The notes beneath the pieces were generated by a model. It was not told the DNA's origin and did no database searches. It saw only the letters and a program-made list of their open reading frames with translations. Source: a virus (taxonomy: Duplodnaviria; Caudoviricetes). Taken from it: a stretch of 53,677 nt of DNA. Below are positions 14,602 through 45,770 of this stretch, piece after piece; the first letter of the stretch is position 1, and each line of letters opens with the position of its first letter. A program made the position numbers and the translations under genes. Where the stretch lies: the IMG/VR virus record IMGVR_UViG_3300020195_000033, positions 1-53,677 of that record; one strand, given 5' to 3'.

Positions 14602-16245
14602 TTAGACGCAGGCGGCGCGCTTGCCGTTAGCAGCAAGGCCAGAGAACACGACCGTCGCAGCAGGCTTGCATCCGAGCTTCGCGAGGCCCTGGGACAGCTC
14701 ACCGAACCATGTCACCTTGTTCTGGCGCTTGTTCGCCAAGTCGGGGATGATGCCGAACGTGTCCCCGCCAGGACTCATCATCGCGAAGTCGTTGCTGTCG
14801 AAGAGGCGGATACGCCACGTCGTCGGACGAGCCGGGACGGCGATAGCGACACCGCCGGGGGGGTTGATCGGCAAGAACGGCGACCACGGCCCGGTGCCAA
14901 CAGCGTCGGAGAAGTCCGGCGTGACAGCGATGCGACCGAACCCGAGGTCCCTGAACAGTTCCTCAGCAGCCTCAGCAGCCTCACGCCCGTTGCATGCCAT
15001 CGCGTTGTCAAGATGCAAGTGCTGCAACAGACCGGCCTCGATGCCGATGGTGTAGCCCGACATGTCGAGCTGACGGTTCGCCGCAGCGAAAGCGCCCATG
15101 AGCCGCCCGATCACGTCATACACCGTGATCGTCGCACCGAACGTGCCAGCCGCCTGCGTGTAACTCGACGAAAGATCGTCGAACATGCGCAACAGCTGGC
15201 CGTCACCAACGCGAGCGGTCGCTGCACGAACCGCCGAGATAGCGGAACCGACAGCCTCCGGCGAGGTCATCGACTGGAACACTGGCATCGAAATGCACTG
15301 TGTGACAGCTTCGACCCCAGCGGTCACTGTGGGCAGACAGCCAATGTCCAGGCAGTCCTTCCAAGTCGTCGGGTCGGCAGGGTCAACAAGGTCCTGCTGC
15401 GTCTGATCCCAGGTGTTCACGCCGCCGATCACGTCAGCGATGCCGAACCCGCGGTAGAACTGGATTTGACCGTGAGTCGACTGAACCTGACGGAACCACG
15501 ACGGGACGTACCGCTCAGCGTTGTCGCATTGCGGAACGTCGCGCAGAATGTCAGCGGGACCGCAAATGTCGAACGGGTCAGCCGCAGCGACCAAACCGGT
15601 CGGCGTTGACTGTGCCGTCGCGTTACGAACCTGCTCAGCGAAGATGCGAGTGTTCTCGCTACGCGAGTTGTCCGACGACACGATGCCTGCCGAAGCCTGC
15701 ATCGCCGGGGCCAACGTGACGAGCGGAAGCGACTTGCCGTTCTGCCCCTTGTCGTGAGCGAACTGACGCACCATCGCGCCAACATCGTCGAGCGTCACAG
15801 CCTCGTTGGCGCGGAACGCTCCGAGAGTCGCCGCCGCCGAAGCAACAAGCGTCTGACGTGGCGCTGCAACATCGTCAGCGGTCACCGGCTCATGTCGAAC
15901 CGACACAGCAGCCGAGAGCGCAGCAGCAGCAGCCATCGCTTCAGCCATGTCAGCTTCCTGACCGACTACGAACGTCTCCGTAGCAGCATCCGAAGCAACA
16001 GCCTCAGGAACCGGGACAGTGGGCAGGTCGTTGACCGCCTCGACCGGTGCAAGCACAACGGTCAGAGCCTCAACGACAGCGTTGGTGTCGATCGCCAAAC
16101 GGCGATGCTCTTGCGCTTCAGCGAGAGTCAACGTCCCCGCCTCGCGTGCGGCAGCCAGTTCAGCCAACCGTGCAGTGTTCGCGGCGTGACGATCACGCAA
16201 CGCGTCCGCGCTCAGGGCCTCAAGCCCAAGGATTTCATCACTCAT
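14602..16245 (-). CDS. major capsid (hexamer-type) protein with N-terminal scaffold region
   Basis: Ala/Glu coiled-coil N-terminus, then GLVAAADPFDICGP... capsid body ending LAANGKRAAC; start re-called at MSDEILG. Confidence 0.85.
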   Translation of the reverse strand: MSDEILGLEALSADALRDRHAANTARLAELAAAREAGTLTLAEAQEHRRLAIDTNAVVEALTVVLAPVEAVNDLPTVPVPEAVASDAATETFVVGQEADMAEAMAAAAALSAAVSVRHEPVTADDVAAPRQTLVASAAATLGAFRANEAVTLDDVGAMVRQFAHDKGQNGKSLPLVTLAPAMQASAGIVSSDNSRSENTRIFAEQVRNATAQSTPTGLVAAADPFDICGPADILRDVPQCDNAERYVPSWFRQVQSTHGQIQFYRGFGIADVIGGVNTWDQTQQDLVDPADPTTWKDCLDIGCLPTVTAGVEAVTQCISMPVFQSMTSPEAVGSAISAVRAATARVGDGQLLRMFDDLSSSYTQAAGTFGATITVYDVIGRLMGAFAAANRQLDMSGYTIGIEAGLLQHLHLDNAMACNGREAAEAAEELFRDLGFGRIAVTPDFSDAVGTGPWSPFLPINPPGGVAIAVPARPTTWRIRLFDSNDFAMMSPGGDTFGIIPDLANKRQNKVTWFGELSQGLAKLGCKPAATVVFSGLAANGKRAACV

Positions 16246-16564
16246 TTGGGGCCTCCGCCTCATCGGTTGGTGCTTCTTCTTCAGATGGCGGGGCGTCGTC
16301 CGCTAGTACTTCTTCTTCGGTCACTTCTTCTTCGGGCACTTCAACAGCTTGCGCCGCTCTCTGTGACCTCGACTTCTTCACTGAAGTCCCCGGCCCTTCG
16401 AGAATCTCAGCGCCGTACATAGCAACAGCGTCGTCAGCTTCAGCCTGAGTGCTCGCACGCGAAAGATCGCCGTTCTTGTAACGGAGCAGAAACGTTCCGT
16501 GTACCGGATCGACCGGACTCATACGCAGCGCACCCGAGCCGCCGCAGCCCTTGCAGCCGCTCAC
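16238..16564 (-). CDS. small Cys-leader protein (MSGCKGCGG) with acidic tail
   Basis: Coupled to both neighbours; immediately upstream of the capsid gene. Confidence 0.65.
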   Translation of the reverse strand: MSGCKGCGGSGALRMSPVDPVHGTFLLRYKNGDLSRASTQAEADDAVAMYGAEILEGPGTSVKKSRSQRAAQAVEVPEEEVTEEEVLADDAPPSEEEAPTDEAEAPNE

Positions 16565-16809
16565 AGACTCGCCACTTCTACTTCAGACGCGATGATGTTT
16601 GCCAGCGCAGCCTCAAGGTCATTGATTCGCGCTTCGAGTAGAGCTAAGCGCTCATCCCCTTGCGCTCCCGCAGCCGTGAGAGCTCCATTGACAACTCGAT
16701 CAATCCGCTCGCCTGCAGCCGCAGTGATTTCAGCGACAGCAGCTTCGAGTGGATCAGTGTTCTTACAATCGCACGTCATAGCGCGCAGGCTAACAGCACA
16801 GCCCGTCAC
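16561..16809 (-). CDS. small coiled-coil, scaffold-like protein
   Basis: RLALLEARINDLEAALA coiled coil; contains an LTAA motif; start uncertain (MTCDC at 16779 possible). Confidence 0.5.
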   Translation of the reverse strand: MTGCAVSLRAMTCDCKNTDPLEAAVAEITAAAGERIDRVVNGALTAAGAQGDERLALLEARINDLEAALANIIASEVEVASL

Positions 16810-16830
16810 TAACCGCGCATGGTCGCGCGA

Positions 16831-17229
16831 TCAGACGTGAGCGAGAGCTTCAGCACCCGGATCAAAGTCGGGGTCGATCCCCGCACGATCGCAGAACGCG
16901 ACCCACATCGCACGCTTCGGGACTTCCTTCGGGCCGCGGAACGCAGCCACTTCGAGATTCTCGAAGTCCTCCTTCGACTCGACGAACTTCGCCGGGTCAG
17001 CGTAGAAACGTGAACGTGCGACACCCGCGGCCATCAGATCCGCGAACGGTTCCAGCCCGTCCTCTGCGGTAACAACGTCGATCCCCGCCTGCGTGTACCG
17101 ATCCCACGCGGCGACAGCAGCCGGGGTATCGGCAGCGGTCTGCGACCATTCATCGCGTGCGTCTTGCTCGACGCTCAACGCCTGAGCCACCTTCTGACGT
17201 GCATCTAGGTAACCGGAAACGTCACTCAT
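16831..17229 (-). CDS. hypothetical helical protein
   Basis: AAGGAG SD; 132 aa. Confidence 0.65.
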   Translation of the reverse strand: MSDVSGYLDARQKVAQALSVEQDARDEWSQTAADTPAAVAAWDRYTQAGIDVVTAEDGLEPFADLMAAGVARSRFYADPAKFVESKEDFENLEVAAFRGPKEVPKRAMWVAFCDRAGIDPDFDPGAEALAHV

Positions 17230-17256
17230 CCATTGCTCCTTGTCTTTGAGGGGTGT

Positions 17257-17484
17257 TCATCCGAACGGGAGAGAGGCGTCGCGACCACTAGCGAGAGTTT
17301 CAGCCCACCATTCCACGGCCACAGCGTAAACCTTGTCACGCTCAGCAGACGGCGGGATCATTGACTCAGAGAGCGGGATACCCAGCTCAGCTTCGACGTA
17401 CAGACGTACCACCTGCTCAGTGGTCAGATCAGACGGCTCAGCCTCACCGTCGCCCTCGAATATCGCCGGGTCAAACGTCACCAT
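17257..17484 (-). CDS. small acidic protein, candidate immunity/antitoxin
   Basis: GAAGGAG SD; own promoter; directly after the zeta-toxin-like domain. Confidence 0.6.
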   Translation of the reverse strand: MVTFDPAIFEGDGEAEPSDLTTEQVVRLYVEAELGIPLSESMIPPSAERDKVYAVAVEWWAETLASGRDASLPFG

Positions 17485-17506
17485 ACAGAATCTCCTTCGC
17501 TCAACT

Positions 17507-17526
17507 TACAACGCTCATTGTATCAC
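17507..17526 (-). promoter_or_regulatory. extended -10 promoter (TGaTACAAT) overlapping operator TACAAt-N4-GTTGTA
   Basis: Minus strand reads gTGaTACAATgagcGTTGTAag; matches the operator family at 24536, 28191, 38583 and 44358. Confidence 0.6.
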
Positions 17527-19745
17527 GGATTGGGGCGTTTGCGGGGCCGTTTCGCCATAAACGACTTCCAAGCCGCCGGGTCGTCGATCACGAGTTTCCC
17601 GCCCTCAGAGTGAGCGATGCCGACGAGCGACTTCCCGCTCATGTTCTCCGTCAGCGAGATACCGTCGAACAGCGGGACCATCTTCTCAAAGTTCCCAGCG
17701 ACCTGCGCGTGACCGTGACGAAGAACAGCCTGAGGAACAGTCCTTGATCGCGCCCGATTCCGACCGAGCGCGTCATTGACTGACGTGGTGACGTACACGC
17801 CTTCGGCCCGATAGCCGTGCGAACGGGCTTCAGCGACCTTCGATGCCACCGACCCGACGTTCCCGCCAACACCGTCGATCGTCACGTCGAACCGTTCACC
17901 GAGGCCGCGAGTCGCGATCTGCTTCGCTATGTACGAGGATTCTTCATGCGTGAAAGCGACACCCTTCTTGGGGTTGTACTCAGGCAGTTCCGCTTTGATC
18001 GCATCAGGGTCGACCTTGAGCCCGGTCGTTTTCAACACCGTCGATTTCCCTGACGCCGCGCCACCACCAAGCATCGTGAACGACGGCGGCGGTGAGTCTG
18101 AGACTCGACCTTGCGCGAGCGTATCCCCGATGATCCGTTCGTGTAGCGCGTGACGTTCAGCCGTGAACCGCGTCCCACCTTTGCCGTCCGATTCGAGATG
18201 CGCCATCGCTGAACCTTTGGCGAACGTGGCGAGCGTCTGATCGTCGAGCGTCGGACGGTTCTTGCGCGTGAACACCGGGGCAGTCGTCGAAACCTTCCCG
18301 CGCCCAGGGACACGGCGACCGCCCAAACCGAAACGGCCACCCGGCTGCCCCGTCGCCCCCGCGAGGAAGGCGGCGACAGCGGACTCGCCAGGATTCTGTG
18401 CAGCAGCGAGAAACGCTCGCGTAGCTGACGGCGCTACTTGAACGCTTGAACGCGCGAGTCGTTCAAGCAGCTCGCCACGCCAATCGAGCGGCTCCCAAGA
18501 CGTGACCAGCGCGTTAGCCGAAGCGGCCATCGCGAACTGCCGCCGCCCCGCCGTGTACGCCGAACGGAACCCTGGCGTGTTCACGACCTGCGCCGCGATC
18601 ATCCGATAGCGGCCCTCTTCCTCGATCCACCGCCAATCACCCGACAACGCAGCCTTCGAGATCACGAACCGGTCGCGCTCTGACAGACCAGGAACTAGAT
18701 CACCGGAAGCCCAAATGCCGTGCTCATCTTCGCGGTAGGTGACGACCGCAGCGGCGTACCCGGTGTCGGCATAATGCTGAACCGCCGCGGACACCGGCAG
18801 CCGAATGTCGGCGTGCGGTAACCCCATCGGGATGATTGCCTGCGAACCCGCAACATGCGCGTAGCGGTAGCCGTCACCGTCGACGGGCGGTTGCACACAT
18901 TTCCCGCGGCCTTCGCCGCCGTTCAAGATGCACGAACCCCACGGTGCGACCAGCGCATCAAACGACCCAAGGTGGCGGGCATCCAAGATGATGAGCGGGT
19001 GCGACGAGTCGACAAGCGGCGACCAACCGGCAGGCGCAGCGGTCAACGGCTTCTTCGCTCGCGTCACGTTCGGCTTGTCAGCCACCACTATCGCTGACCG
19101 ATCAAACACGACATAGTAAGACTCCGAACCGCCCACAACCCCAGCCGGAGGAATCCGCATAATCTGCGCGCCCGCGGTCATCGCCCGCAACCCTTGCTGG
19201 GCTTTGCTCTCAGGGGCATTCGGTGAGTAGTCCACGATCCGCGCATCACTCTTGATACCGATGGTAGTGACCAGCCCACCGGTGCCGCTTTCCGTAGACG
19301 GGAATCGCACCATCCGCCCATACGCGTCCGCTTCAGTCATCGACGGCGTTGTGTAAGTCCCATCACCGAACCGGCCTGAGCCAACCCAATGATCTCCGTG
19401 AACAAACTCGTCGTGAAACTCAAACGCTGACCCGGGCTGACCCGGCGAATCAGCATTCCCGCGATGCACGACGATCGCAATGTCACGTCGCGCTCGCACT
19501 TCGTCAGGAGTACCGACGACTTCAGGCTTCGACTTGTCAAACCCGAGTCGCTGATACGCCCACGCGGTCGGCTGCTTGCTCGGCGTGTCGGCATAGCGAG
19601 TGCCAGCGAAGTGCGCAGCAAGCCCAGCCTCATCCGGCATCTCATCGAGATTGAACCCGCGCCCCGGGTTACGCACACCGCCCTTACCGAACCGCCCACC
19701 AGGCTGCCCCGTCGCTCCCGCAAGGTACGCGAGAGTCGCGCTCAT
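17523..19745 (-). CDS. ART-like domain / capsid maturation protease / zeta-toxin-like kinase fusion
   Basis: ATGA coupling to the portal stop. VHRG..GRFGDGTYTT..A.AYG..YYVVFDRSAI (ART-like); APWGSCI..PP..EDEHGIWASG..LSGDWR..VNTPGF (actinophage prohead protease); MLGGGAASGKST..VDPDAIK..HEESS..IDG (zeta-toxin-like P-loop). Confidence 0.8.
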   Translation of the reverse strand: MSATLAYLAGATGQPGGRFGKGGVRNPGRGFNLDEMPDEAGLAAHFAGTRYADTPSKQPTAWAYQRLGFDKSKPEVVGTPDEVRARRDIAIVVHRGNADSPGQPGSAFEFHDEFVHGDHWVGSGRFGDGTYTTPSMTEADAYGRMVRFPSTESGTGGLVTTIGIKSDARIVDYSPNAPESKAQQGLRAMTAGAQIMRIPPAGVVGGSESYYVVFDRSAIVVADKPNVTRAKKPLTAAPAGWSPLVDSSHPLIILDARHLGSFDALVAPWGSCILNGGEGRGKCVQPPVDGDGYRYAHVAGSQAIIPMGLPHADIRLPVSAAVQHYADTGYAAAVVTYREDEHGIWASGDLVPGLSERDRFVISKAALSGDWRWIEEEGRYRMIAAQVVNTPGFRSAYTAGRRQFAMAASANALVTSWEPLDWRGELLERLARSSVQVAPSATRAFLAAAQNPGESAVAAFLAGATGQPGGRFGLGGRRVPGRGKVSTTAPVFTRKNRPTLDDQTLATFAKGSAMAHLESDGKGGTRFTAERHALHERIIGDTLAQGRVSDSPPPSFTMLGGGAASGKSTVLKTTGLKVDPDAIKAELPEYNPKKGVAFTHEESSYIAKQIATRGLGERFDVTIDGVGGNVGSVASKVAEARSHGYRAEGVYVTTSVNDALGRNRARSRTVPQAVLRHGHAQVAGNFEKMVPLFDGISLTENMSGKSLVGIAHSEGGKLVIDDPAAWKSFMAKRPRKRPNP

Positions 19746-22699
19746 GCCAAGCCGAGAGTGATCGCACACGTACAGTTATGAACTACGATGGATTCGGCCA
19801 GATACCATCCAGTCACCGTTTGGAGATTGTAGACATGCCCCGCAAACCACCGCCGATTGACCTTGACGATCTGATCGAACGCTACGCAACCGGCGAGTCC
19901 CTCAAGACTCTCTCCCAAACGCTCAGCATCGACCGAACCACGCTCACCCGCAGACTCCGTGCTAACGGAGTCAGAATCAGAACTATCACCGAGCAGACCA
20001 TGATCTTCGCCGCTGCTCAGACTCCCGAGTACAGAGCCGCCAGAGCTGTCAACGCTCACGCCGCCAAACGTGGCGTTCCGAACTCTCCCGAGCACCTTGC
20101 CCGAGCTGCTATCGCTCGGCAGGCCAACCCGCGATGCAGCGCCAACGAAGTCAGACTCGCTGGCTGGCTCGCTGAACGCGGAATCGTCACTGTCCCGCAA
20201 GTAGCGGTCGGCCCATACAGTTGCGACCTCGCTGCCCACCCCGTCGCCGTGGAAGTCTTTGGTGGCAACTGGCACGCTACGGGACACCACGCCCGCCGAT
20301 TCTCCGAACGCACGCGTTACTTCCTCGATCACGGTTGGGCTTTGGTAATCGCCTGGGATCAGACCCGCGACCCGCTCAGCGTCCACGCAGCGGACTACAT
20401 CGCTGCCTTCGTCGAGCAAGCCCGCAGCGACCCATCCGTGGTCGGTGAGTATCGGATGATTCGGGGTTGCGGTGAGGAACTGTCCCGAGGCCGTGGTCAA
20501 CTCGATGACATCCCCCTCGTAATATCGCAGCGTCGCCCCCCGAGGCCCCGGTCCTGACACCACAGTCGAGCCGATGAAACAGTTGTAGTGATCGCCAGGG
20601 TATTGGGAACCGAACTCGTCGAACGACGACGCTGTGTACCCGTTGAACGACAGATGCACCGCGTCAGGCACCTTCGGAGTCCGGTAGTAGCCGTGTCGCC
20701 ATGTGTACGTCAATGCAGGGCTACCAACGCTGTCGACGATCGAGTCGCGCGTCATCGGCCCACCAGCGGCACCGGCCTGGATTGTCGCCTCCAAGTCTTG
20801 CCCGCCAGTCACAGAGAGAGCGCGACGGACGACCCCCGTTGGTAGCTCAGCTTCGGCGTTGGTCTGATGCCCGCCTGAGCCGACACGAAACCGGGTGTAA
20901 TCACGCATCGAGTCAGCGAGAGCCTGCCCGCCAGCCCGATACCGGTACTTGGGTGCGAACCCGCCGACCGCGGCCAGCAGAGCAACAGTGAACGCTCCAA
21001 GGGCGTGTTTCAAGTCCTGCTCAGCCTGCGTCGCGAGCGCCTTGTAATCGTCGTCAGTCACCAGCATTTCAGGGGTGATCCCGTACGCGGCAATGTCAGC
21101 CTCGGTGACAAGCGCAAGTTTCTCGGTCGACGTGTCGACAGTCGCCAGCCGTTTCTTCAAGTCTGACCCTGACGGCGCGATACGTGCGAGCCTGCGCGCC
21201 GCGTTGTCGATCGTCGCCGCGTATGCCATCCCCGCAGCCGCGGTCAACGCTACGACGAGCATGTGATCGACCTGAGATGCTTCCTCTAAGAGACGCTCAA
21301 TCGGTGTCTGACGTGGCGCTGCGGTGAGCTGTCGCGGTCCTGCTGTCACCGCGGCCGCGACGCCGACCGGCTCTGTGACAGCAGGACGCGCGCCCGCGTC
21401 AGCAGCCGGGGCTGCCGCGTCGGCTTTGAGTCCAAAGGCCATAGCCCACAGATCAAACTCTGACATACCCTCAGGAAGCGGGATCGGGTCCGCGTCGACA
21501 GCCTCAGCGACAGCTTGACGAGTAGCCGCGCCGACTTTATACGCCTCCATCAGATGCGCAGAGTTATCGACCTTCGAGCGAATCCGGTCAAGATCAGGAC
21601 CGATCGTGAACTGGCCTCTCGGCACTTCCCCAGTGATCGTCGTGTAAGCGTCCGTGAACACCTTGCGCATGACGACCCGCCAGATATCCGTAAGCATCAG
21701 AGTCGCAGTCGGTTCCACCGCGTCAGTAATCAGCGCTTCGAGAACGAACGCCTCATTCTCGAACTTCGCGACTCCCGGGCCGGAATGAATGTACTGCAAC
21801 GGGGTGCGAACCGATCGGGCGAACGCGTAGATCGCTGAATCCTCGAGAGTTTGCGACTGCGGGTCAGACACGCGCCCTAGATCGACCGTTTCGAGTTTGT
21901 CGCCCAGCATCGGGAACGGCACCGAGTCAACGCCGCGCCGCTTGTCGTGATAGCGGCGGGTGTCAGCTTTCTGAGCGAGCTTCAAGTAGTCAACGAACGC
22001 GTCAGGCATCCCGTTATACGGCGAACCGTCCTCGTCCTGGTAGACCTCTGTGCCCTGCCCGAATAGCAGAATCTTGTTTCGCACCAGCGGCGAAGTCGTA
22101 TCCGAATCTTGCCGAAGCTTCACATTGACGTACTCGCGAATGTGCGGCAACGCCCGCTTCAGATCGCAAGTCGGCTCACGCGGATCGCGGTCAAGCGGCT
22201 CCCAAGAACGCCACACCCGCTGGCCTTCGACCGGGACTTCGACCCATTTCTCAGTCATAGGGTCGCGGAACTTCACGATACGGTTTTCCCACTTCAGCTC
22301 GTCGCGGTGAGCGACAACGTAACGCCCATCGTCGAGACGCAGAATGAACGCCTCCCCATGCTTCAGCAGCAACCGAGAGTGACGATTCAGCAGCCCAGTC
22401 GTATCGCTGTACGGGCCGCGCCACGTTCGCCACACCCCAGCGAAAATCGACTGCGCTCTCTCGTCTGAGGAAACACGATCGCCGTCGTACAGCACAGCGC
22501 CACACGCGGCCACCTTCGCCGCCAGCAGATCGAGATACGAACCGACGAACCCTGGCCCCCACTCGTCGTACATATCCACTTCGGTCTGCCACGGAGCAAG
22601 AGCCGTCGCACGGTTCTGAGCGTTGTTCAAGTGCGCGCGAGAAACAGGCCCAGCCGCCGCTGTGATCGCTTGAGGCTGCTTAGCGCGCCATAGGCCCAA
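19742..22699 (-). CDS. portal protein fused to a MuF-like domain, interrupted by an intein
   Basis: Head-module position; LKHGEAFIL and VWRSWEP portal motifs; C-terminal YTWRHG...H...G...PGDHYN|CTC. TTG start after an AGAAGGA SD. Confidence 0.85.
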   Translation of the reverse strand: MGLWRAKQPQAITAAAGPVSRAHLNNAQNRATALAPWQTEVDMYDEWGPGFVGSYLDLLAAKVAACGAVLYDGDRVSSDERAQSIFAGVWRTWRGPYSDTTGLLNRHSRLLLKHGEAFILRLDDGRYVVAHRDELKWENRIVKFRDPMTEKWVEVPVEGQRVWRSWEPLDRDPREPTCDLKRALPHIREYVNVKLRQDSDTTSPLVRNKILLFGQGTEVYQDEDGSPYNGMPDAFVDYLKLAQKADTRRYHDKRRGVDSVPFPMLGDKLETVDLGRVSDPQSQTLEDSAIYAFARSVRTPLQYIHSGPGVAKFENEAFVLEALITDAVEPTATLMLTDIWRVVMRKVFTDAYTTITGEVPRGQFTIGPDLDRIRSKVDNSAHLMEAYKVGAATRQAVAEAVDADPIPLPEGMSEFDLWAMAFGLKADAAAPAADAGARPAVTEPVGVAAAVTAGPRQLTAAPRQTPIERLLEEASQVDHMLVVALTAAAGMAYAATIDNAARRLARIAPSGSDLKKRLATVDTSTEKLALVTEADIAAYGITPEMLVTDDDYKALATQAEQDLKHALGAFTVALLAAVGGFAPKYRYRAGGQALADSMRDYTRFRVGSGGHQTNAEAELPTGVVRRALSVTGGQDLEATIQAGAAGGPMTRDSIVDSVGSPALTYTWRHGYYRTPKVPDAVHLSFNGYTASSFDEFGSQYPGDHYNCFIGSTVVSGPGPRGATLRYYEGDVIELTTASGQFLTATPNHPILTDHGWVAAGLLDEGSDVVRCVDAERVAGLIPGDYQSPTVIEEVTRAFGESAGVVSRSVPVATKDFHGDGVGSEVATVWADRYLRDSDDSAFSEPASESDFVGAASRVGLPSDSSSGKVLGRVRNATFGGVSVDSSGGSVLGSLSSGEDHGLLGDSSDSDSVSTESAGERGSVDAERLGESLEGLAGCVAFDQIVKVNRRWFAGHVYNLQTVTGWYLAESIVVHNCTCAITLGLA
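19775..20581 (-). mobile_element. 269-aa class 1 intein with no sense-strand endonuclease
   Basis: Block A CFIGSTVV; block B LTATPNHPILT..GW; block F GHVYNLQT; block G IVVHN followed by Cys+1. Confidence 0.93.
19835..20557 (+). CDS. antisense endonuclease inside the intein: HTH + NUMOD3-like + Vsr/DUF559-like (EDxHD-type) nuclease
   Basis: GGAG SD at 19822-19825 before ATG 19835. HTH LIERYATGESLKTLSQTLSIDRTTLTRRLRANGV; KRGVPNSPEHLAR; SANEVRLAGWL..G....Q..VGPYSCDL....VAVEVFGGNWH...GW. Confidence 0.82.
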   Translation: MPRKPPPIDLDDLIERYATGESLKTLSQTLSIDRTTLTRRLRANGVRIRTITEQTMIFAAAQTPEYRAARAVNAHAAKRGVPNSPEHLARAAIARQANPRCSANEVRLAGWLAERGIVTVPQVAVGPYSCDLAAHPVAVEVFGGNWHATGHHARRFSERTRYFLDHGWALVIAWDQTRDPLSVHAADYIAAFVEQARSDPSVVGEYRMIRGCGEELSRGRGQLDDIPLVISQRRPPRPRS

Positions 22700-22865
22700 C
22701 TCGGTTGTCCTTCTCGTCACGTCCCTAAGCGGTTGCGCGCAGGCTATCAGCCGACGCGGGCGCGAACATGGACGTGACGCGCAACCGCCCCGACGCTGGC
22801 TCGTGAGAGCGATGGGATCGGGGCGGTCTTGCATGACAACTTCACTGAAGTCGTTAGCAGCAACT

Positions 22866-23204
22866 CTACCGTTGTGGCGGGAAACTCACACCATCAGGCA
22901 AGTCTCGCTGGGCAGCTTCGTTGAGCCACCGCAACAGTCCGTACCCGACGATCCTCGCGGCCATGACGACAGCGATACCACGACCGACTTCAGTATCCCG
23001 CGAGAGATACAGCGCGAGTGAAGCCCACATGGGGAAGCACATAGCGCAGCCGATGACGTACTGCAAATGGTACGGGAGCCAGCCGCCCGCCTTTGAGAGT
23101 GTCTTGAAGTAGCGGTATCGCCACCATTGCGTGATCCGGTCTGAGATAGCGAGCTTCCAGATCGACGCCGCCGCCAGCCCGATAACGAGGACTTGTTCTA
23201 TCAC
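22866..23204 (-). CDS. DUF1360-like membrane protein
   Basis: KLAISDRITQWWR...IGCAMCFPMW motif; usual position upstream of portal. Confidence 0.7.
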   Translation of the reverse strand: MIEQVLVIGLAAASIWKLAISDRITQWWRYRYFKTLSKAGGWLPYHLQYVIGCAMCFPMWASLALYLSRDTEVGRGIAVVMAARIVGYGLLRWLNEAAQRDLPDGVSFPPQR

Positions 23205-23392
23205 GACGGCTCAGTCGCGACAACGAGTGGTAGCTCGCGAATCCGTGCGAGCGCGTCGTCAACGCACAAGCTGGCTTCAGTCGAGTCGAACACCCCTGTC
23301 GGCTTTGGCTCCCAGCACACGCTGGCAGCCCCGGCTAGTTGGCCGACGACTTCTTCGATTGTCGATGCGTCTGCGAATCGGTTGGTGGTCAT
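23201..23392 (-). CDS. conserved small phage protein
   Basis: GAASVCW..PTGVFDS motif; GAAGGAG SD. Confidence 0.65.
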   Translation of the reverse strand: MTTNRFADASTIEEVVGQLAGAASVCWEPKPTGVFDSTEASLCVDDALARIRELPLVVATEPS

Positions 23393-23433
23393 TGATTGCT
23401 CCTTCGTCGTGTGGGTGTTATCGCAATGCTATC

Positions 23434-24291
23434 TCAGGCGGCGACAGCGAGCGGCACAGCGCGCTCGACGAGCCATGTCGTGGCCTTCTGAGCAGCCTGC
23501 GCCGCGGTCAGCAGCAGCGACGGATCGGCTTTCAAGACTGCGGCCCAATGTTTGATGTAGCGGGCGTGGTCGTCACGCTGCGGTAGCTCCCCGAAGTTGA
23601 ATGTCGCCGCGGTCAGCGACGCGCTGATCTCTGCGACCAGTTCCTCGGCAGCGTAGCTGTCAGACCCGAATCGCCCGGTTAGATCACGCTTCAGTCGTGA
23701 CTCATGGCCCGACCAATGAGCCAGTTCGTGAGCGACAGTTCCTACGAAACCCTCAGATGAGTGGAAGTTCTCGCGATCAGGCCAGCACACGGTGTCAGTC
23801 GCCGGTCGATAGCAAGGGCGGTCGACAGCGTACTTGAAGCTGAGATTTGCGATCGCTGCAACGAACCGGGTTTCGGCTTCAGTCACTTCGATCGGAGTCG
23901 CCGGGGTTGCTTCCCATCCGTCCTGTTGCGCCGCGTTGAACACGGTGAAACCGACCGGGATGAGTCCACCCTTCGACTTCACGCCGTCGACAGCTTCCGA
24001 CTTCGCAACCTCGACCCACTTGACCCCGCTCGTCCCGCGCTCACCCTTTCGGACTTGACCGCCGATCGCTGACCATTGCTTGTACGTCGCCCAGCGAGCT
24101 GTCGGATACTCATGCTCGATCTGACTCGCCCACAAGAGCAGAACGTTCACCCCGCGGTACGAGTTTCCGGTGCTCGCGTTTGTCGGGATCGACCCGCCGC
24201 CCGTCCAGCATGGCTTCCACGTTCCAGTCACGGTGTCGAGCGACCCGATCAGCGAGTCGACGAGCGCCTCAAGCGTGTCTTTCACCCTCAT
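23434..24291 (-). CDS. ardC: ArdC-family anti-restriction ssDNA-binding protein with zincin-like domain
   Basis: YRGVNVLLL, WATYKQW..GGQVRKGE, FTVFN, HELAHWSGHESRL, FGSDSYAAEELVAE. Confidence 0.9.
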   Translation of the reverse strand: MRVKDTLEALVDSLIGSLDTVTGTWKPCWTGGGSIPTNASTGNSYRGVNVLLLWASQIEHEYPTARWATYKQWSAIGGQVRKGERGTSGVKWVEVAKSEAVDGVKSKGGLIPVGFTVFNAAQQDGWEATPATPIEVTEAETRFVAAIANLSFKYAVDRPCYRPATDTVCWPDRENFHSSEGFVGTVAHELAHWSGHESRLKRDLTGRFGSDSYAAEELVAEISASLTAATFNFGELPQRDDHARYIKHWAAVLKADPSLLLTAAQAAQKATTWLVERAVPLAVAA

Positions 24292-24506
24292 GCGGGCGAC
24301 ACCGCCAGCAGGAAGATTCCGAATGGGGTGCAGTTCCTCACGACGTTGACAAGCGCGTCGTCGGGCAGTCCCGCGGTCGCTTCCGCGTCGCGTGTCGTCC
24401 AGATGACTTGGCGGGCCTTCACCGCGCCGAGTTTCTCGACGGTCACTGAATAGGTTGAATCGGCTGGCGGAAGCGTCAGCGTCTTGGGCTTCTTAGTCGT
24501 TGTCAT
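24288..24506 (-). CDS. hypothetical protein (leaderless)
   Basis: ATG 7 nt after a TACAAT -10; ATGA coupling to ardC. Confidence 0.6.
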   Translation of the reverse strand: MTTTKKPKTLTLPPADSTYSVTVEKLGAVKARQVIWTTRDAEATAGLPDDALVNVVRNCTPFGIFLLAVSPA

Positions 24507-24555
24507 ACTGGTGATTGTACCACCGAATCACCCCCGTTACAACGCTAGTTGTAAC
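24507..24555 (-). promoter_or_regulatory. sigmaA-type leaderless promoter with palindromic operator
   Basis: TTGTAA-17-TACAAT-7-ATG; GTTACAAC-N4-GTTGTAAC at 24536-24555 covers the -35. Confidence 0.8.
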
Positions 24556-24695
24556 GTCTGATTGGGGACGAGTATGAAAGTTCATATCAGCAAATGCAAG
24601 AGTGCTAGCTGACACTTAGACCTCGCTGAGCGTCGATCTCAGCCGGGTCTACGCCCGTTAGCCGGTGACAAGCGCCCAAGACGCTGAACGGCGTG

Positions 24696-26099
24696 CTAGA
24701 GAGCGCTGAGCGAGCCTGCACGACTGATACCAGTGCCGCCAGCCTTGATCCCGAGGCCGTGTAACACCCAAACGAGCGCGTCGAGCCGGTCAGGTGAACC
24801 GTCGCCCGCCTTCTCCTCACCAAACACCCAGGAAGTCATCATTTCTTCAAGCAGATCGAGTCCCTTGACGTGCCAGATACGAAACGGAGGATTCGGTGCT
24901 GCCGCCCGTTCGTAGGCTGTCGCCGCCGGGATCGTCCGCTGCTCCTTCGACTTCGACGCGCTCACCGGGGACAGCCGAACGTCAGTGTGATCGCCACCGC
25001 CCGCTTCTTTCCACACTGACAGCCAAGTGTCCTTGCCTTGATTGTCCTCGATCACGACAGTACGCGCCCCGTACTTCACCGCGGCGGCGAGACAGATGCG
25101 CGCAGCCCCGACCGGGGAAGTCTTGCAAGTCAGATCGTCGATCACGAACACGTCACCGTTCGCTGTCTTGCCAGCCACGACGATGCCGTGAGCGTCAGAC
25201 TTGTCTTTCGACGTGACCGCCGGGTCCCAGCCGATCACGACTTTCGTGAACACAGCCGGGAGCGCGTTCTGAACGATCCACTCTGTACGCCACTGCGCTC
25301 CCTCAACGTCATCCAACTCGCGACCATGAATCTCCTGCAAACCGAGCCGAGTCCCTTCGTACCGGTCAAGGACAAGACGAACGAACGACGGCGCAAGATT
25401 CGAGATGTTCTCATACGTCGACCCCTCCGTGAGTACCGTCCGCGTGTCGCGCGCTAGGACACGCAGCCAACGCCTACGCTTCGGTGTGCCAGTCAGGATC
25501 GCTTTCGGATTCCCCAACCGGTTGCCGAGCATCGCGTTGTTCCACGCATCCTCACCGTAGGACCAACTTGACGGCTCATCCCCAGCGACAAGATCAGACT
25601 GCAACCCGCGCAGCGCGTCAGGGTCCTCGCCGGAACGTATGTGACCGATCGCCCCGTTCGGCCACGTCAACAACCGCTTCGACGGCTCATACAACGGACG
25701 CGACTCCGGCGGATGAACAGCGAGCAGCCCGGAGAGCGGACCTTCGATCATCACGTCGCGCGCTTCAGCCGCGGTCGGCCCGATGAACGTCACCGCTTTC
25801 GACAACCCGCGCGACACCCGGTTCCGAACGGTCTCCGACAACGTTCTCGACTTCCCAGCCCCTCGACCTGCACGAATATACCAAGTGTCCCAATCATCAT
25901 GATCGGGTGGTAGCTGCGACGGGCGCGCCCATAGCGACTCCCAAGAGTACGGAAGCACGTCAGCGCGTTCATGCGCAGTGAACGTGTCAATGAACGCCGC
26001 TACAGCTTCAGCGTGATCTTCCGGTGAGATCAGCGCCAGCAGACTGCGCTCGATAGGCGAGAACGTCGCCGGGTCCCTCGTCAGCACCGTGTCGGTCAC
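24696..26099 (-). CDS. terL: terminase large subunit
   Basis: AGRGAGKS Walker A; LRGLQ..GDE Walker B; TGTP; STYEN..NL; IGWDPA; SPDRLDALVW. Confidence 0.95.
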   Translation of the reverse strand: MTDTVLTRDPATFSPIERSLLALISPEDHAEAVAAFIDTFTAHERADVLPYSWESLWARPSQLPPDHDDWDTWYIRAGRGAGKSRTLSETVRNRVSRGLSKAVTFIGPTAAEARDVMIEGPLSGLLAVHPPESRPLYEPSKRLLTWPNGAIGHIRSGEDPDALRGLQSDLVAGDEPSSWSYGEDAWNNAMLGNRLGNPKAILTGTPKRRRWLRVLARDTRTVLTEGSTYENISNLAPSFVRLVLDRYEGTRLGLQEIHGRELDDVEGAQWRTEWIVQNALPAVFTKVVIGWDPAVTSKDKSDAHGIVVAGKTANGDVFVIDDLTCKTSPVGAARICLAAAVKYGARTVVIEDNQGKDTWLSVWKEAGGGDHTDVRLSPVSASKSKEQRTIPAATAYERAAAPNPPFRIWHVKGLDLLEEMMTSWVFGEEKAGDGSPDRLDALVWVLHGLGIKAGGTGISRAGSLSAL

Positions 26100-30532: not shown

Positions 30533-31182
30533 TCGGTTGCAGTCGTTTCGATCGCAGGCTGAGAGAACCGGGAGACGATCTGAGCCATCCGTTCAGCAAC
30601 AAGATCAGCGACAGCCGACGAATCGGTTTGATCGTGAACCGTGATCGCCAACGTCGCCTTCTTCCCGTACACAGACGGCTCCAAATGTTCCAGCCGCCAT
30701 TGCACCATCCCCGAATCGGGCAGCGTCCGCTCAACAGTCTCGACCGTTTCGACGAGCGCGCCAGCCGAGTCTTTCTTGATACGTGTCGACTTGACTTCGA
30801 CACCGCCGCGTGCGATCTGCTCCGAAACAACGGTGAGACGGGCCACCTGAGAGCCGTGCGCTCGCACGGTACGCTCAGCGAAGATCGCCATGTCCTGCTG
30901 ATCGGGGGTGAAGTCTGTCTCCCACCCTGCGCCGGAGTTGAGTCGGGCGACGACGAGCTGGCCTTCGCGCATCCACGTCAGATACTCAGACGCTACGACT
31001 CCCGCTGCTGCTGCCGCGGTGACCGGGTGAACACCTGCGTCGATCTGCGACACGATGTAGTCACCGATCGTTGTCGGTTTCCCAGCGGTCAGATCGGACG
31101 GTAGGAGCGTCGAGATTGTCGGGCGTAGCGGGCGCGGCGGTGTCAGCCTGAACGACTGCGAACGATCCAACGTGTCAGTCAT
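30529..31182 (-). CDS. terminase small subunit-like HTH protein
   Basis: I..GVHPVTAAAAAGV....TWMREG...FAE..VRA...WRLEHLEPSVYGK; follows the ParB-MTase gene. Confidence 0.6.
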   Translation of the reverse strand: MTDTLDRSQSFRLTPPRPLRPTISTLLPSDLTAGKPTTIGDYIVSQIDAGVHPVTAAAAAGVVASEYLTWMREGQLVVARLNSGAGWETDFTPDQQDMAIFAERTVRAHGSQVARLTVVSEQIARGGVEVKSTRIKKDSAGALVETVETVERTLPDSGMVQWRLEHLEPSVYGKKATLAITVHDQTDSSAVADLVAERMAQIVSRFSQPAIETTATE

Positions 31183-38551: not shown

Positions 38552-38598
38552 AGGCCAATTGTACCACGGAACGACACCGGTTTACAACTACGGTTGTA
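38552..38598 (-). promoter_or_regulatory. leaderless promoter with operator
   Basis: TTGTAA-18-TACAAT-6-ATG; TACAAC-N4-GTTGTA at 38583-38598. Confidence 0.75.
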
Positions 38599-39457: not shown

Positions 39458-39459
39458 TG

Positions 39460-39612
39460 CTAGTCCCTCCCATTTGCTAGTCGTCTGAGTGTGTCGCTGA
39501 GGTCGTTCAGCCGTTGCTGATAATGCCGCAGGCACAGCCATTGAACTGGGTTCCCGTAGCCGACGAGCGACTCGCTAGCACAGCCTTCGACTTCACACTG
39601 ACGTTCGGTCAT
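39460..39612 (-). CDS. 50-aa zinc-finger protein (not in the ORF track)
   Basis: MTERQCEVEGC...WLCLRHYQ; ATGA-coupled. Confidence 0.6.
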   Translation of the reverse strand: MTERQCEVEGCASESLVGYGNPVQWLCLRHYQQRLNDLSDTLRRLANGRD

Positions 39613-43012: not shown

Positions 43013-43278
43013 CTGAGGTCGAGAGCATGTTGCTCAACGACCGGCTTCTTGCGGCGCTTCAACGCTGGGCACGTCACCCAGTGCGAGACGTAGGCGACAC
43101 CTTCCGGTTCCGGTTCGCCCTTGCGCGCGACAGTCGCGACCAGTTGGCCGTACTCGTACGCGAGATAGACGGTCCCTTCCGCGGGCTGCGGGTCGACCGG
43201 CATACGCCGACCGGTCGCGGTCAGCACCAGCGCTATCGGACGATGACAATGCTTACAAGGACGCGACGGCAAGCTCAC
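43009..43278 (-). CDS. zinc-binding hypothetical protein
   Basis: CKHCHRPI..T.TGRRMPVD..SHWVTCP; GTGA-coupled. Confidence 0.7.
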   Translation of the reverse strand: MSLPSRPCKHCHRPIALVLTATGRRMPVDPQPAEGTVYLAYEYGQLVATVARKGEPEPEGVAYVSHWVTCPALKRRKKPVVEQHALDLR

Positions 43279-45577: not shown

Positions 45578-45770
45578 GGTGCTCCCTTTCGGTTGGCCCG
45601 ACCAGGTAAGCTCCTGGCGGGTTTCTTAGCCGAGTCCCACTGTACCAGTCCCCTGGGCCGGAAGCCGCGGAAGCGTCCCGGTCCTGGGGGCTGCGTCGTT
45701 TGATAGCCCGGTTGTATCCGCGTTCACAATGCTGCTAGTGTTCTCGTTCCACACACGGAACGAGGAGAAC

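What the first reader, a model, noticed from the sequence alone, without database searches (positions are those of the whole stretch)
17523..19745. Prohead protease sandwiched between an ART-like domain and a zeta-toxin-like kinase
Seen: one ORF holds an ART-like domain (~19565-19083; HRG, GxGxY, YVVFDR), an actinophage capsid maturation protease (~18975-18560) and a zeta-toxin-like P-loop kinase (~18165-17560; GGGAASGKST, DPDAIK, HEESS). Established: MuF and polyvalent phage head proteins carry toxin or effector domains; classical zeta toxins phosphorylate UDP-GlcNAc. Inference: here the protease rather than MuF is the carrier, so two enzymatic effectors may be packaged into the head, released by self-cleavage and injected for host takeover or anti-defence. 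Substrates are unknown.
Basis: partly seen in the sequence, partly recalled or inferred. Interest (0 to 1): 0.8.

Follow-up and report, generated by a model that had tools for sequence, protein, structure and literature searches.

The report
Phage head protease carrying two enzymes
An uncultured phage fuses its capsid-maturation protease to an ADP-ribosyltransferase-like domain and a zeta-toxin-like kinase, most likely so that both enzymes are packed into the capsid; this is a new arrangement of a known phage strategy.

Summary
One 740-aa gene (19745-17526, minus strand, stop 17523-17525) holds three domains in the order reported. They are an ART-fold domain, a T4-gp21/assemblin-like prohead protease, and a zeta/AvrRxo1-like P-loop kinase.

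Two details need correcting. In the ART-like family the conserved residues are R-Y-(N/D)R, not the H of 'HRG'. The kinase lacks the zeta-toxin residues at the position where zeta has EGTGR, and it shares H[SE]ESS with the NAD kinase AvrRxo1.

Each cargo domain follows the same 25-aa tag (...AGATGQPGGRFGxGG...). In a relative that is 45-70% identical by segment (P0004), the ART module sits after the protease instead of before it.

The idea itself is in print. Iyer et al. 2017 and 2022 describe polyvalent, MuF-, portal- and peptidase-fused head effectors, including ARTs and zeta-like kinases. Cyanophage P-SS2 ORF030 combines MuF with the same kinase and ART-like families, and it was found in purified virions.

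Self-cleavage, injection and the substrates are still only inferred. This scan has reported similar head cargo proteins and junction tags on other DNA.

Verdict: a real feature and a new variant of a known kind, of moderate interest.

The parts
17523..19745 (-). Whole gene: 740-aa tag-ART-like-protease-tag-kinase protein (stop codon 17523-17525).
   Evidence: ORF list, translation, database entry P0003 of 740 aa, ATGA overlap with the portal stop, no stops inside.
19656..19733 (-). Tag 1 (residues 5-30, LAYLAGATGQPGGRFGKGGVRNPGRG), directly before the ART-like domain.
   Evidence: A 76-nt direct repeat, 80% identical to 18297-18372. The tag occurs only twice in the six frames of the window. 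Coordinates.
19062..19643 (-). ART-fold domain (residues ~35-228). Motifs: HRG 94-96, GDGTYTT within 122-134, YYVVFDR 210-216.
   Evidence: AF2 model, pLDDT 89.2. Foldseek and VIA matches to ParT, diphtheria toxin, exotoxin A and PARPs. Family motif counts. BFVD hits.
18546..19040 (-). Prohead (capsid maturation) serine protease core (residues ~236-400). Candidate catalytic residues H311 (18813-18815) and S368 (18642-18644).
   Evidence: PHROG hits. Invariant H and S in 18 sequences. Model pLDDT 73. T4 gp21 at Z 6.6 is the only chain with Z>=5 among 48,161. Herpesvirus assemblins among the Foldseek hits.
18378..18545 (-). Post-protease segment (residues 401-456): a low-confidence loop followed by two helices. 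Possibly the capsid-binding tail of the protease (inference).
   Evidence: Model secondary structure and pLDDT. Conserved between P0003 and P0004.
18297..18377 (-). Tag 2 (residues 457-483, VAAFLAGATGQPGGRFGLGGRRVPGRG), directly before the kinase.
   Evidence: Direct repeat. The same tag stands before the kinase in P0004. Similar junction tags lie upstream of the kinase in 29 of 91 relatives.
17541..18248 (-). Zeta/AvrRxo1-like P-loop kinase (residues ~500-735). Motifs: Walker A GGGAASGKST 560-569, VDPDAIK 578-584 (candidate catalytic Asp), HEESS 600-604.
   Evidence: Pfam Zeta_toxin E 1.2e-8. Profile against PDB: zeta toxin 5.3e-12, AvrRxo1 5.5e-8. 92 relatives. Coordinates.
19742..22834 (-). 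Upstream gene, translationally coupled: portal protein with a C-terminal MuF-like motif interrupted by a 269-aa intein (19775-20581).
   Evidence: phrog_776 portal. Intein hits. Motif pieces aligned to a MuF protein. ATGA overlap.

Best explanation
This is a phage 'polyvalent' head protein in which the phage's only recognisable capsid-maturation protease carries two enzyme cargos.

Shown:
- The gene lies between the portal gene and the major capsid gene.
- It is translationally coupled to the portal gene.
- It encodes tag - ART-fold domain - gp21/assemblin-like serine protease - tag - zeta/AvrRxo1-like kinase.

Inferred, step by step:
1. The protease part is built into the procapsid, as prohead proteases are, and takes the two enzymes with it.
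2. Once active, it trims the scaffold and capsid protein and cuts its own polypeptide at or near the two identical tags, which frees a ~22-kDa ART-like enzyme and a ~28-kDa kinase.
3. These stay in the head and enter the next host with the DNA.
4. There the kinase phosphorylates a nucleotide-type small molecule. NAD-like or UDP-sugar substrates are the best candidates.
5. The ART-fold enzyme uses NAD+ to modify a host target. Both actions would favour takeover or blunt defence.

The tags also act as recombination points that let cargo modules move.
For: Domain identities:
- Pfam Zeta_toxin scores above its cut-off.
- A kinase profile hits zeta toxin at 5.3e-12 and AvrRxo1 at 5.5e-8.
- The ART-fold model (pLDDT 89.2) matches ParT at Z 8.1, rmsd 3.4, 133 aligned, and diphtheria toxin at Z 7.5. 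Of 1000 chains, 407 reach Z>=5, and 49 of the 50 rows shown are ART enzymes.
- The protease model matches T4 gp21 at Z 6.6, rmsd 3.6, 122 of 165 residues. It is the only chain with Z>=5 among 48,161. H311 and S368 are invariant in 18 sequences.

Context:
- The gene order is terminase, ArdC-N+MPTase-PolyVal, portal, this gene, two small ORFs, major capsid protein.
- No other protease was found in the 25 ORFs scanned with PHROGs or the 36 scanned with Pfam.

Recurrence:
- Of the 92 proteins in the kinase-family search, 13 carry MuF, 10 a portal family and 9 Peptidase_S78_2. Adding P0003 and P0004 gives 34 of 92.
- P0095 has ART - S78_2 protease - zeta in the same order, built from unrelated ART and protease families.

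Virion evidence from a relative:
- P-SS2 ORF030 consists of MuF, this kinase family (E 1.6e-86) and this ART-like family (E 4.3e-30).
- It gave 96.5 peptides on average from purified virions (Table 2 of PMC2784084).
- It has no capsid-protein PHROG.

Tags:
- The two copies are encoded by a 76-nt repeat.
- The ART module has moved between tags in P0004.
- Junction tags lie upstream of the kinase in 29 of 91 relatives, against 19 of 589 control windows.
Against: - No data on this phage's virions, cleavage or injection exist. It is an uncultured record, 71% complete by CheckV.
- Prohead proteases often digest themselves and leave the capsid, so fused domains could be lost rather than kept.
- The ART-like family lacks both canonical triads: R replaces H, and N is commoner than D/E at the third position. 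It fails Pfam ART-PolyVal: no hit at E<=1 for this protein, and only 3 of 35 relatives give sub-threshold hits. Catalysis is therefore not assured.
- The P-SS2 peptides were not mapped to domains in the text I read.
- The structural Z-scores (6.6-8.1) are middling by the tool's own calibration.
- Iyer 2017 states that assemblin-like peptidases always sit at the C-terminus of polyvalent proteins. Here the peptidase is internal.
Confidence: 0.6

Rival explanations
1. The enzymes act in the producing cell, not in the next host. The fusion only co-expresses them late with the head genes. The kinase could weaken the wall or drain a nucleotide pool to help lysis or shut-off, and the fragments are degraded or expelled from the prohead like the protease itself.
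For: Classical zeta toxins cause lysis by phosphorylating UDP-GlcNAc (PMC5923241, passages; PMC5512222). Prohead proteases are known to self-digest and leave the capsid (recalled knowledge of HK97 and T4). Nothing in this window shows retention.
Against: The same kinase family is fused to portals (10 of 92) and MuF (13 of 92), which stay in the virion. P-SS2 ORF030, with both families, is abundant in purified virions. There is a dedicated tag before each cargo.
Confidence: 0.15
2. The N-terminal ART-fold domain is not an enzyme. It is a structural or ligand-binding module, for example one that anchors cargo inside the capsid or senses NAD+. Only the kinase would then be an effector.
For: Neither the canonical H-Y-E/D nor the R-S-E triad is present: H in 7 of 45 copies, N rather than D/E in 36 of 45. 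There is no Pfam ART hit at E<=1. hhalign against single ART-PolyVal and ADPrib_exo_Tox proteins gave probabilities below 2%.
Against: Very strong conservation of R (42 of 42), GxGxYGxGxY (Y in 43 of 45) and the final R (45 of 45) looks like an active site. Tandem arrays of 2-3 copies match what is reported for polyvalent ARTs (PMC5512222). One relative fuses the domain to NUDIX (P0036). The best structural match, ParT, also belongs to an Arg-type ART group (the Arg type is recalled).
Confidence: 0.2
3. The kinase is an RNA (polynucleotide 5') kinase of a repair module that counters host anticodon or RNA nucleases. It would not be a small-molecule kinase.
For: The kinase profile also hits the RNA-repair kinase Pnkp1 (E 1.5e-4). 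Five of 92 relatives carry a 2H/LigT phosphoesterase in the same protein. Pfam AAA_33 also matches.
Against: Hits to zeta toxin (5.3e-12) and AvrRxo1 (5.5e-8) are stronger, and the family shares ERxxLH, (N/D)PDxxK and H[SE]ESS with AvrRxo1. AvrRxo1 itself did not use a dinucleotide RNA analogue (PMC5087710, passages). No ligase is encoded next to the gene.
Confidence: 0.12
4. The three-domain fusion is an assembly chimera or a frameshifted join of separate genes.
For: It is a metagenomic record. Only one close relative (P0004) exists, and it has a different domain order.
Against: A second assembler's contig (32,262 nt, depth 23) covers 17300-20300 with 0 differences and no joints, though possibly from the same sample. 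Pieces 95-99% identical occur in a second study. The two tag repeats are only 80% identical, too unlike to mis-join. P0004 is also one open frame with all three domains.
Confidence: 0.03

Closest known systems
Polyvalent proteins and MuF/portal/peptidase-fused head effectors of phages (Iyer, Burroughs, Anand, de Souza, Aravind 2017, PMC5512222; Iyer et al. 2022, PMC9503650)
   Same: Several effector domains in one polypeptide encoded among head genes of a portal-terminase phage. ARTs are the commonest protein-modifying domain. Zeta-like kinases fused to MuF are explicitly mentioned, as are assemblin-like peptidases in such proteins. Nudix domains fused to the capsid-processing serine peptidase are noted. 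The proteins are predicted to be packaged and injected. The neighbouring gene here is ArdC-N + MPTase-PolyVal, the hub pair of that class.
   Different: The peptidase here is internal (N-terminal in P0004), not C-terminal as stated for polyvalent proteins. The ART-like domain is not recognised by Pfam ART-PolyVal and has R-Y-(N/D)R instead of H-Y-D. Identical 25-aa tags flank the cargos, and the ART module is permuted between close relatives.
Cyanophage P-SS2 ORF030 (GQ334450 17648-22147, 1499 aa; Sullivan et al. 2009, PMC2784084)
   Same: It carries the same kinase family (35.8% identity over 209 aa; profile E 1.6e-86) and the same ART-like family (E 4.3e-30) in one head-module protein. It was detected in purified virions with 96.5 peptides on average.
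   Different: The carrier is MuF (Pfam), not the protease. The order is MuF - kinase - ... - ART-like. The paper labels it 'major capsid protein' and does not discuss the enzymes (sections and passages read).
Phage T4 Alt and internal proteins
   Same: An ART is packed in the head, carries a leader that the prohead protease gp21 removes, and is injected with the DNA (as summarised in PMC5512222). The protease here resembles gp21 in fold.
   Different: In T4 the cargo and the protease are separate proteins, and Alt is an R-S-E ART. Here the cargos are covalently joined to the protease, and the leader is a different G-rich GRF-type tag.
Zeta/PezT toxins and the type III effector AvrRxo1
   Same: P-loop kinase fold family (Pfam PF06414), with the Walker A motif and the Asp aligned to zeta D67 (D67 role from PMC5923241). 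The ERxxLH, (N/D)PDxxK and H[SE]ESS motifs are shared with AvrRxo1.
   Different: There is no epsilon- or AvrRxo2-like partner recognised next to it. Zeta's EGTGR segment reads DGVGG here. The domain is fused into a virion protein instead of forming a toxin-antitoxin pair or a secreted effector.
MuF polymorphic toxins of temperate phages (Jamet et al. 2017, PMC5576092; seen in a search listing only)
   Same: A head-protein carrier with swappable C-terminal toxin domains.
   Different: There is no MuF domain inside this polypeptide, and no immunity gene was identified downstream.

Membership tests
ADP-ribosyltransferase superfamily (fold level) | ART fold recognisable by structure comparison | tested here: met
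   Model pLDDT 89.2. Foldseek PDB gave 20 matches at E<=1e-3, among them PARP1/2, ParT, diphtheria toxin and exotoxin A. VIA: ParT Z 8.1, rmsd 3.4, 133 aligned; 407 of 1000 chains at Z>=5. The Atlas structure neighbours include PARP and RES clusters.
ADP-ribosyltransferase superfamily (fold level) | Canonical NAD+-site triad (H-Y-E/D or R-S-E) | tested here: not met
   Counts over 45 domain copies in 37 proteins. First position: R in 42 of 42 ungapped copies (the H just before it in only 7 of 45). Second position: Y in 43 of 45. Third position: N in 36 and D in 9, followed by R in 45 of 45. The hybrid is R-Y-(N/D)R. The placement on strands follows the model's secondary structure and is inferred.
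ADP-ribosyltransferase superfamily (fold level) | NAD+-dependent transfer or NADase activity | not testable with these tools
   This needs an enzyme assay.
Pfam ART-PolyVal (PF18760) | Match to the family HMM above the gathering score (31.2 bits) | tested here: not met
   No hit at E<=1 for this protein. Three of 35 relatives gave 21.4-24.0 bits. The nearest Atlas cluster carries PF18760 on 20% of its members. hhalign against one ART-PolyVal protein gave probability 1.6%.
Prohead/capsid maturation serine proteases (T4 gp21, HK97 gp4, herpesvirus assemblin superfamily) | Assemblin-like fold | tested here: met
   VIA against 48,161 chains: T4 gp21 (5jbl_A) at Z 6.6, rmsd 3.6, 122 aligned, the only chain with Z>=5. 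VZV protease 4.7, HCMV protease 4.1. Foldseek ranks 2-13 are mostly herpesvirus proteases at E 0.08-0.3. Model pLDDT is only 73.
Prohead/capsid maturation serine proteases (T4 gp21, HK97 gp4, herpesvirus assemblin superfamily) | Conserved His then Ser catalytic residues | tested here: inconclusive
   H311 and S368 are invariant in 18 aligned sequences, 57 residues apart. Their equivalence to the gp21 catalytic residues could not be read from the tools and is inferred from order and spacing (recalled).
Prohead/capsid maturation serine proteases (T4 gp21, HK97 gp4, herpesvirus assemblin superfamily) | Gene between portal and major capsid gene; family annotated as maturation protease | tested here: met
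   Gene order. phrog_18402 'head maturation protease' at E 8.2e-15. tblastn hits lie under genes annotated as capsid maturation protease in Arthrobacter and Microbacterium phages.
Prohead/capsid maturation serine proteases (T4 gp21, HK97 gp4, herpesvirus assemblin superfamily) | Match to a Pfam prohead protease model | tested here: not met
   No Pfam family covers residues 230-460 at E<=1, and none is found in 24 relatives carrying the domain.
Zeta toxin family (Pfam PF06414) | HMM match above the gathering score; Walker A; Asp equivalent to zeta D67 | tested here: met
   35 bits against 22.3. GGGAASGKST at 560-569 and VDPDAIK at 578-584. The family profile aligns vdPDaiK with zeta iDnDtfK. 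The role of D67 is from PMC5923241.
Zeta toxin family (Pfam PF06414) | UDP-GlcNAc-binding residues of classical zeta/PezT | tested here: inconclusive
   Where zeta has EGTGRTT the family has DGTGD and this protein DGVGGN. That this segment is the UNAG motif is recalled. PMC5087710 states only that AvrRxo1 lacks the UNAG-binding residues.
Zeta toxin family (Pfam PF06414) | Cognate antitoxin (epsilon/PezA/AvrRxo2-type) encoded beside it | tested here: inconclusive
   The two small downstream ORFs (75 and 132 aa) have no Pfam or PHROG family.
Polyvalent proteins (Iyer et al. 2017) | Two or more effector-type domains in one polypeptide, encoded with the virion genes of a portal-terminase phage | tested here: met
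   Three enzyme domains. Terminase, portal and major capsid protein around it.
Polyvalent proteins (Iyer et al. 2017) | Assemblin-like peptidase, when present, at the C-terminus | tested here: not met
   The peptidase is at residues 236-400 of 740 here, and at 13-240 of 750 in P0004. The statement is in PMC5512222, section 'Peptidases'.
MuF polymorphic toxins | N-terminal Phage_Mu_F domain in the same protein | tested here: not met
   No PF04233 hit in this protein. The upstream portal gene has only a motif-level resemblance, and my own MuF profile scored 2.9 bits.

The most novel reading that the evidence does not exclude
The repeated G-rich 'GRF' tag (here AGATGQPGGRFGxGG; elsewhere RDxxGR[FW], HPRxxGxF or HLxGKHDQ) is a portable boundary signal. 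It would serve for loading cargo into the capsid and/or for cutting by the prohead protease. Any enzyme cassette placed behind it would then be packed and released, and recombination between tags would shuffle cargos around head proteins. That is what happened to the ART module between this phage and P0004. The payload itself may be directed at NAD+, pairing an AvrRxo1-type kinase with an unusual R-Y-N ART-fold enzyme.
Probability: 0.3. Interest if true: 0.65.

Novelty: new variant of a known kind. Interest (0 to 1): 0.45.

Why it matters
It adds a clear case in which the capsid-maturation protease itself carries enzyme cargo.

It defines an ART-fold family with an unusual R-Y-(N/D)R site. That family escapes the current Pfam models and gave no match by tblastn (E<=1e-3) in 50,697 deposited phage records, although a profile of the family finds it in cyanophage P-SS2 ORF030.

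It shows a cargo module moved between two identical tags in close relatives. If the tags are loading or cleavage signals, they would give a simple rule for finding virion-delivered effectors in metagenomes. They would also offer a handle for packing chosen proteins into phage capsids.

The kinase's likeness to AvrRxo1 raises the testable idea that phages inject NAD-modifying kinases.

Tried and rejected
- Megablast of 15000-25000 against 50,697 phage records: no match.
- tblastn of the ART-like domain against the same records: no match at E<=1e-3.
- phmmer of the whole protein against PDB sequences: only two chance-level hits. A profile of the ART-like family against PDB sequences gave none at E<=10.
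- NCBIfam: nothing useful for this protein.
- The search for related loci: 3 weak protease-only loci in IMG/VR and none in GTDB genomes. These loci were not studied further.
- hhalign of the ART-like profile against one ART-PolyVal protein and one ADPrib_exo_Tox protein: probabilities 1.6% and 1.0%.
- MuF identity of the portal's C-terminal part: BLASTP against two MuF proteins gave only short motif pieces. My own MuF profile gave 2.9 bits, so MuF is left as a motif-level lead.
- Complex prediction of the kinase domain with the 75-aa downstream ORF (a possible antitoxin): no answer, score 0.01.
- No RNA holder was listed for the stretch.
- Short joints between 19600 and 20218 in two runs rest on 18- and 25-nt sides and were not interpreted.
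- The cyanophage A4 paper has no occurrence of 'ADP-ribosyl', 'ribosyltransferase' or 'PARP' in its main text. The match to its pre-ejectosome chain is therefore only a lead.
- Literature searches for the tag motif and for prohead protease with zeta toxin found nothing specific. One search found only general capsid-targeting papers.
- The scan's notes hold nothing for this genome.
Full report
**What is there**

The window is a whole IMG/VR virus record of 53,677 bases. It is linear and 71% complete by CheckV, about 60% G+C, with most genes on the minus strand. The head module reads, on the minus strand:
- large terminase, 24696-26099
- a 72-aa ORF
- ArdC-N + MPTase-PolyVal, 23434-24291
- a 112-aa ORF
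- portal, 19742-22834
- the gene in question
- ORFs of 75 and 132 aa
- major capsid protein, 14602-16263
- head-tail adaptor, major tail protein and tape measure

The frame in question is open from 19769 to 17523. The protein collection holds it as 740 aa starting at the ATG at 19745 (P0003). That ATG overlaps the portal's TGA as ATGA, and no clear ribosome-binding site lies before it, which suggests translational coupling.

**Is the fusion real?**

Logan's independent assembly of run X1 gives one contig of 32,262 nt at depth 23. It covers 17300-20300 without a single difference or joint, although X1 may be the sample the record came from. Three runs of another study hold short pieces at 95-99% identity. 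The closest relative, P0004 (750 aa, from another contig), is also a single frame with all three domains. I therefore reject an assembly artefact.

**Kinase (residues ~500-735)**

Pfam Zeta_toxin matches at E 1.2e-8, 35 bits against a cut-off of 22.3. A search of the large protein collection found 92 proteins at E<=1e-3 among 7,998 scored candidates, P0003 itself and P0004 included.

A profile of 18 of these hits zeta toxin 1gvn_B (5.3e-12), AvrRxo1 (5.5e-8), the RNA-repair kinase Pnkp1 (1.5e-4) and PezT (2.8e-4). The Walker A motif (GGGAASGKST) and the Asp of VDPDAIK are invariant. That Asp aligns with zeta's D67, the residue that activates the substrate hydroxyl (PMC5923241 passages).

Zeta's EGTGR segment reads DGVGG here. 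The family's ERxxLH, (N/D)PDxxK and HEESS motifs are matched by AvrRxo1 (ERRKLH, NPDVFK, HSESS) and not by zeta. AvrRxo1 phosphorylates NAD and lacks the UNAG-binding residues of zeta kinases (PMC5087710 passages). I conclude that this is a zeta-superfamily kinase whose substrate is open. A nucleotide-type small molecule is the most likely substrate.

**Where this kinase family occurs**

By the precomputed Pfam column:
- 13 of the 92 proteins carry Phage_Mu_F
- 10 carry one of four portal families
- 9 carry the prohead protease model Peptidase_S78_2
- 5 carry a 2H/LigT domain
- 5 carry a Pfam ART domain

I re-scanned 20 of the 92 with Pfam to get domain order. P0095 reads ART (163-255) - S78_2 protease (469-594) - Zeta (937-1125). 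That is the same three-part order as here, built from unrelated ART and protease families. Protease-kinase fusions are thus recurrent.

**Protease (residues ~236-400)**

There is no Pfam match. PHROGs labelled portal, virion structural or head maturation protease match residues 274-432 at E down to 2.2e-24. tblastn finds the domain in 399 phage records, all below 60% identity and none covering 80% of the query. They are mostly Gordonia (193), Microbacterium (103), Mycobacterium (68) and Arthrobacter (15) phages, often under genes annotated as capsid maturation protease.

Of 25 relatives scanned with Pfam, 6 carry MuF (2 above the cut-off), 4 carry DUF6582, 1 carries Zeta (P0004) and 14 carry nothing. 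In most of them the protease sits near the C-terminus.

In an alignment of 18 sequences, H311, S368, D370, W371, R372 and two Cys are invariant. The model is moderate (pLDDT 73.3). Foldseek gave no match at E<=1e-3, but herpesvirus assemblins fill most of ranks 2-13. The search that does not depend on Foldseek put T4 gp21 first, at Z 6.6, rmsd 3.6 and 122 aligned residues. It is the only one of 48,161 chains with Z>=5. VZV (4.7) and HCMV (4.1) proteases follow.

No other protease was seen in the ORFs scanned. I take this domain to be the phage's capsid maturation protease.

**ART-like domain (residues ~35-228)**

There is no Pfam, NCBIfam or PDB-sequence hit. An exhaustive HMMER search of 1.84 billion representatives found 37 proteins at E<=1e-3. 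I scanned 35 of them with Pfam:
- 3 have sub-threshold ART-PolyVal hits
- 3 have MuF
- P0041 is MuF + three copies of this domain + two zeta domains
- P0036 adds NUDIX

The model built with 20 sequences is confident (pLDDT 89.2, pTM 0.86). Foldseek against PDB gives 20 matches at E<=1e-3: a cyanophage A4 pre-ejectosome chain, PARP1/2, ParT, diphtheria toxin and exotoxin A. VIA gives ParT Z 8.1 (rmsd 3.4, 133 aligned) and diphtheria toxin 7.5. Of 1000 chains, 407 reach Z>=5, and every row shown but one is an ART enzyme.

BFVD gives 30 matches at E<=1e-3. Uncharacterised phage proteins lead the list (1.1e-11). It also includes 'Capsid maturation protease and MuF-like fusion protein' of Microbacterium phage Schubert and several proteins named ART-PolyVal. 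The ESM Atlas agrees, as a lead only.

The fold is therefore ART, but the site is unusual. Counts over 45 copies in 37 proteins:
- the motif is [YFHW]-R-G, with R in 42 of 42 ungapped copies and H before it in 7 of 45
- GxGx[YF]GxGxY, with Y in 43 of 45
- hhh[N/D]R, with N in 36, D in 9 and R in 45 of 45

The family matches neither H-Y-D (the ART-PolyVal type described in PMC5512222) nor R-S-E.

**The tags and the moved module**

Residues 5-30 and 457-483 are near-identical: (L/F)LAGATGQPGGRFG(K/L)GG(V/R)R(N/V)PGRG. They are encoded by a 76-nt direct repeat of 80% identity and occur nowhere else in the six frames of the window. One stands before the ART-like domain and the other before the kinase.

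P0004 matches in three blocks: kinase 70%, protease 61% and ART-like 45% identity. Its order is protease (13-240) - ART-like (244-453) - tag - kinase (468-747). The ART module has moved from one side of the protease to the other, with tag-like GGRF sequence at the junctions.

Related G-rich tags are RDxxGR[FW], [HQ]PRxxGx[FW], HLxGKHDQ and KGGQFAKGGGRVPGRG. Such a tag lies within 75 residues upstream of the kinase in 29 of 91 relatives, against 19 of 589 control windows of the same proteins. My pattern did not count P0004's own tag. My two literature searches for such motifs found nothing relevant.

**Evidence for packaging from a cultured phage**

Cyanophage P-SS2 ORF030 (1499 aa) has Pfam MuF (154-270) and Zeta_toxin. 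With my profiles it has this kinase family (347-642, E 1.6e-86) and this ART-like family (1163-1380, E 4.3e-30). It has no capsid-protein PHROG. Table 2 of Sullivan et al. 2009 lists ORF 030 (17648-22147, 1500 aa) with 96.5 peptides on average from purified virions, under the label 'major capsid protein'. A protein joining the same two enzyme families is therefore a virion component. The text I read does not say which parts the peptides cover.

**Mechanism**

The gene's position, its coupling to the portal gene, the domain identities, the tags and the recurrence of fusions to head proteins are shown. The rest is inferred: co-assembly through the protease, cutting at the tags, retention in the head, injection, and action on a nucleotide-type substrate and a host target. 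I put 0.6 on this reading.

The rivals are:
- action in the producing cell only (0.15)
- a non-catalytic ART-like module (0.2; compatible with the main reading for the kinase)
- an RNA-repair kinase (0.12; a rival for the substrate only)
- an artefact (0.03)

**Comparison and novelty**

Iyer et al. 2017 already describe polyvalent head proteins with ARTs, zeta-like kinases fused to MuF, and assemblin-like peptidases. Iyer et al. 2022 note effectors fused to the capsid-processing serine peptidase. What is new here:
- the peptidase is internal or N-terminal
- the ART-fold family has an R-Y-(N/D)R site and is unrecognised by Pfam
- twin tags flank the cargos, and the ART module is permuted between close relatives
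- the kinase has AvrRxo1-like features

This makes it a new variant of a known kind. The scan has reported comparable head cargo proteins before on other DNA (e1-5845931, e1-5905208, e1-5712002).

Noticed in passing
window 19775-20581 (minus strand), inside the portal gene 19742-22834: A 269-aa intein (C752 ... HN1020, followed by C1021) sits 10 residues before the end of the portal protein. It splits a MuF-like 'HxN|CxC' motif. It hits the M. tuberculosis RecA intein at E 8e-6, Pfam Intein_splicing at E 3.4e-4 (below the cut-off) and NCBIfam intein_Nterm at E 8e-4. No homing endonuclease domain was seen. The MuF identity of the host region is only motif-level.
   Followed up: partly
window 23434-24291 (minus strand): ArdC-N (E 2.4e-27) + MPTase-PolyVal (E 3.7e-36), the hub pair of polyvalent proteins, is encoded as a separate 285-aa gene between terminase and portal. 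PHROGs label it anti-restriction protein.
   Followed up: no
window 31179-32684 (minus strand): A ParB-N-like domain fused to an N6/N4 DNA methylase (501 aa), another architecture typical of phage counter-defence proteins.
   Followed up: no
L005 4795-9294 (Cyanophage P-SS2, GQ334450 17648-22147): ORF030 is annotated 'minor head protein' in GenBank and 'major capsid protein' in the 2009 paper. It is really MuF + zeta-like kinase + long spacer + the R-Y-(N/D)R ART-like domain. It gave 96.5 peptides on average in the virion proteome table.
   Followed up: partly
window 19522-19669, run X2 (tables 7 and 8): A 201-nt contig from a second study matches 19522-19669 exactly (the tag end and the start of the ART-like domain). 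It then runs on for 53 nt unlike the window, towards lower coordinates. This may be a relative with different sequence behind the tag, but the piece is too short to tell.
   Followed up: no
P0005 (721 aa): A relative whose protease domain aligns strongly with this one (phmmer E 1.3e-82) has the protease at its N-terminus, followed by ~500 residues with no Pfam family and internal repeats (GY[TA]GPTSY..L REIAG). This is a different, unknown cargo on the same carrier.
   Followed up: no
PDB 9k3a_B residues 1264-1610: A chain of the cyanophage A4 pre-ejectosome resembles the ART-like model (Foldseek E 1.5e-4; VIA Z 7.5, rmsd 4.7, 132 aligned). The paper's main text has no occurrence of ADP-ribosyl, ribosyltransferase or PARP.
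   Followed up: partly
window 38588-39541, 43275-43802, 45729-46472, 49592-50440: DUF5131 (E 2.8e-71), RusA resolvase, a Mu Gam-like protein and an HNH + HTH protein. These are ordinary phage replication and recombination genes. No integrase was seen among the ORFs scanned.
   Followed up: no
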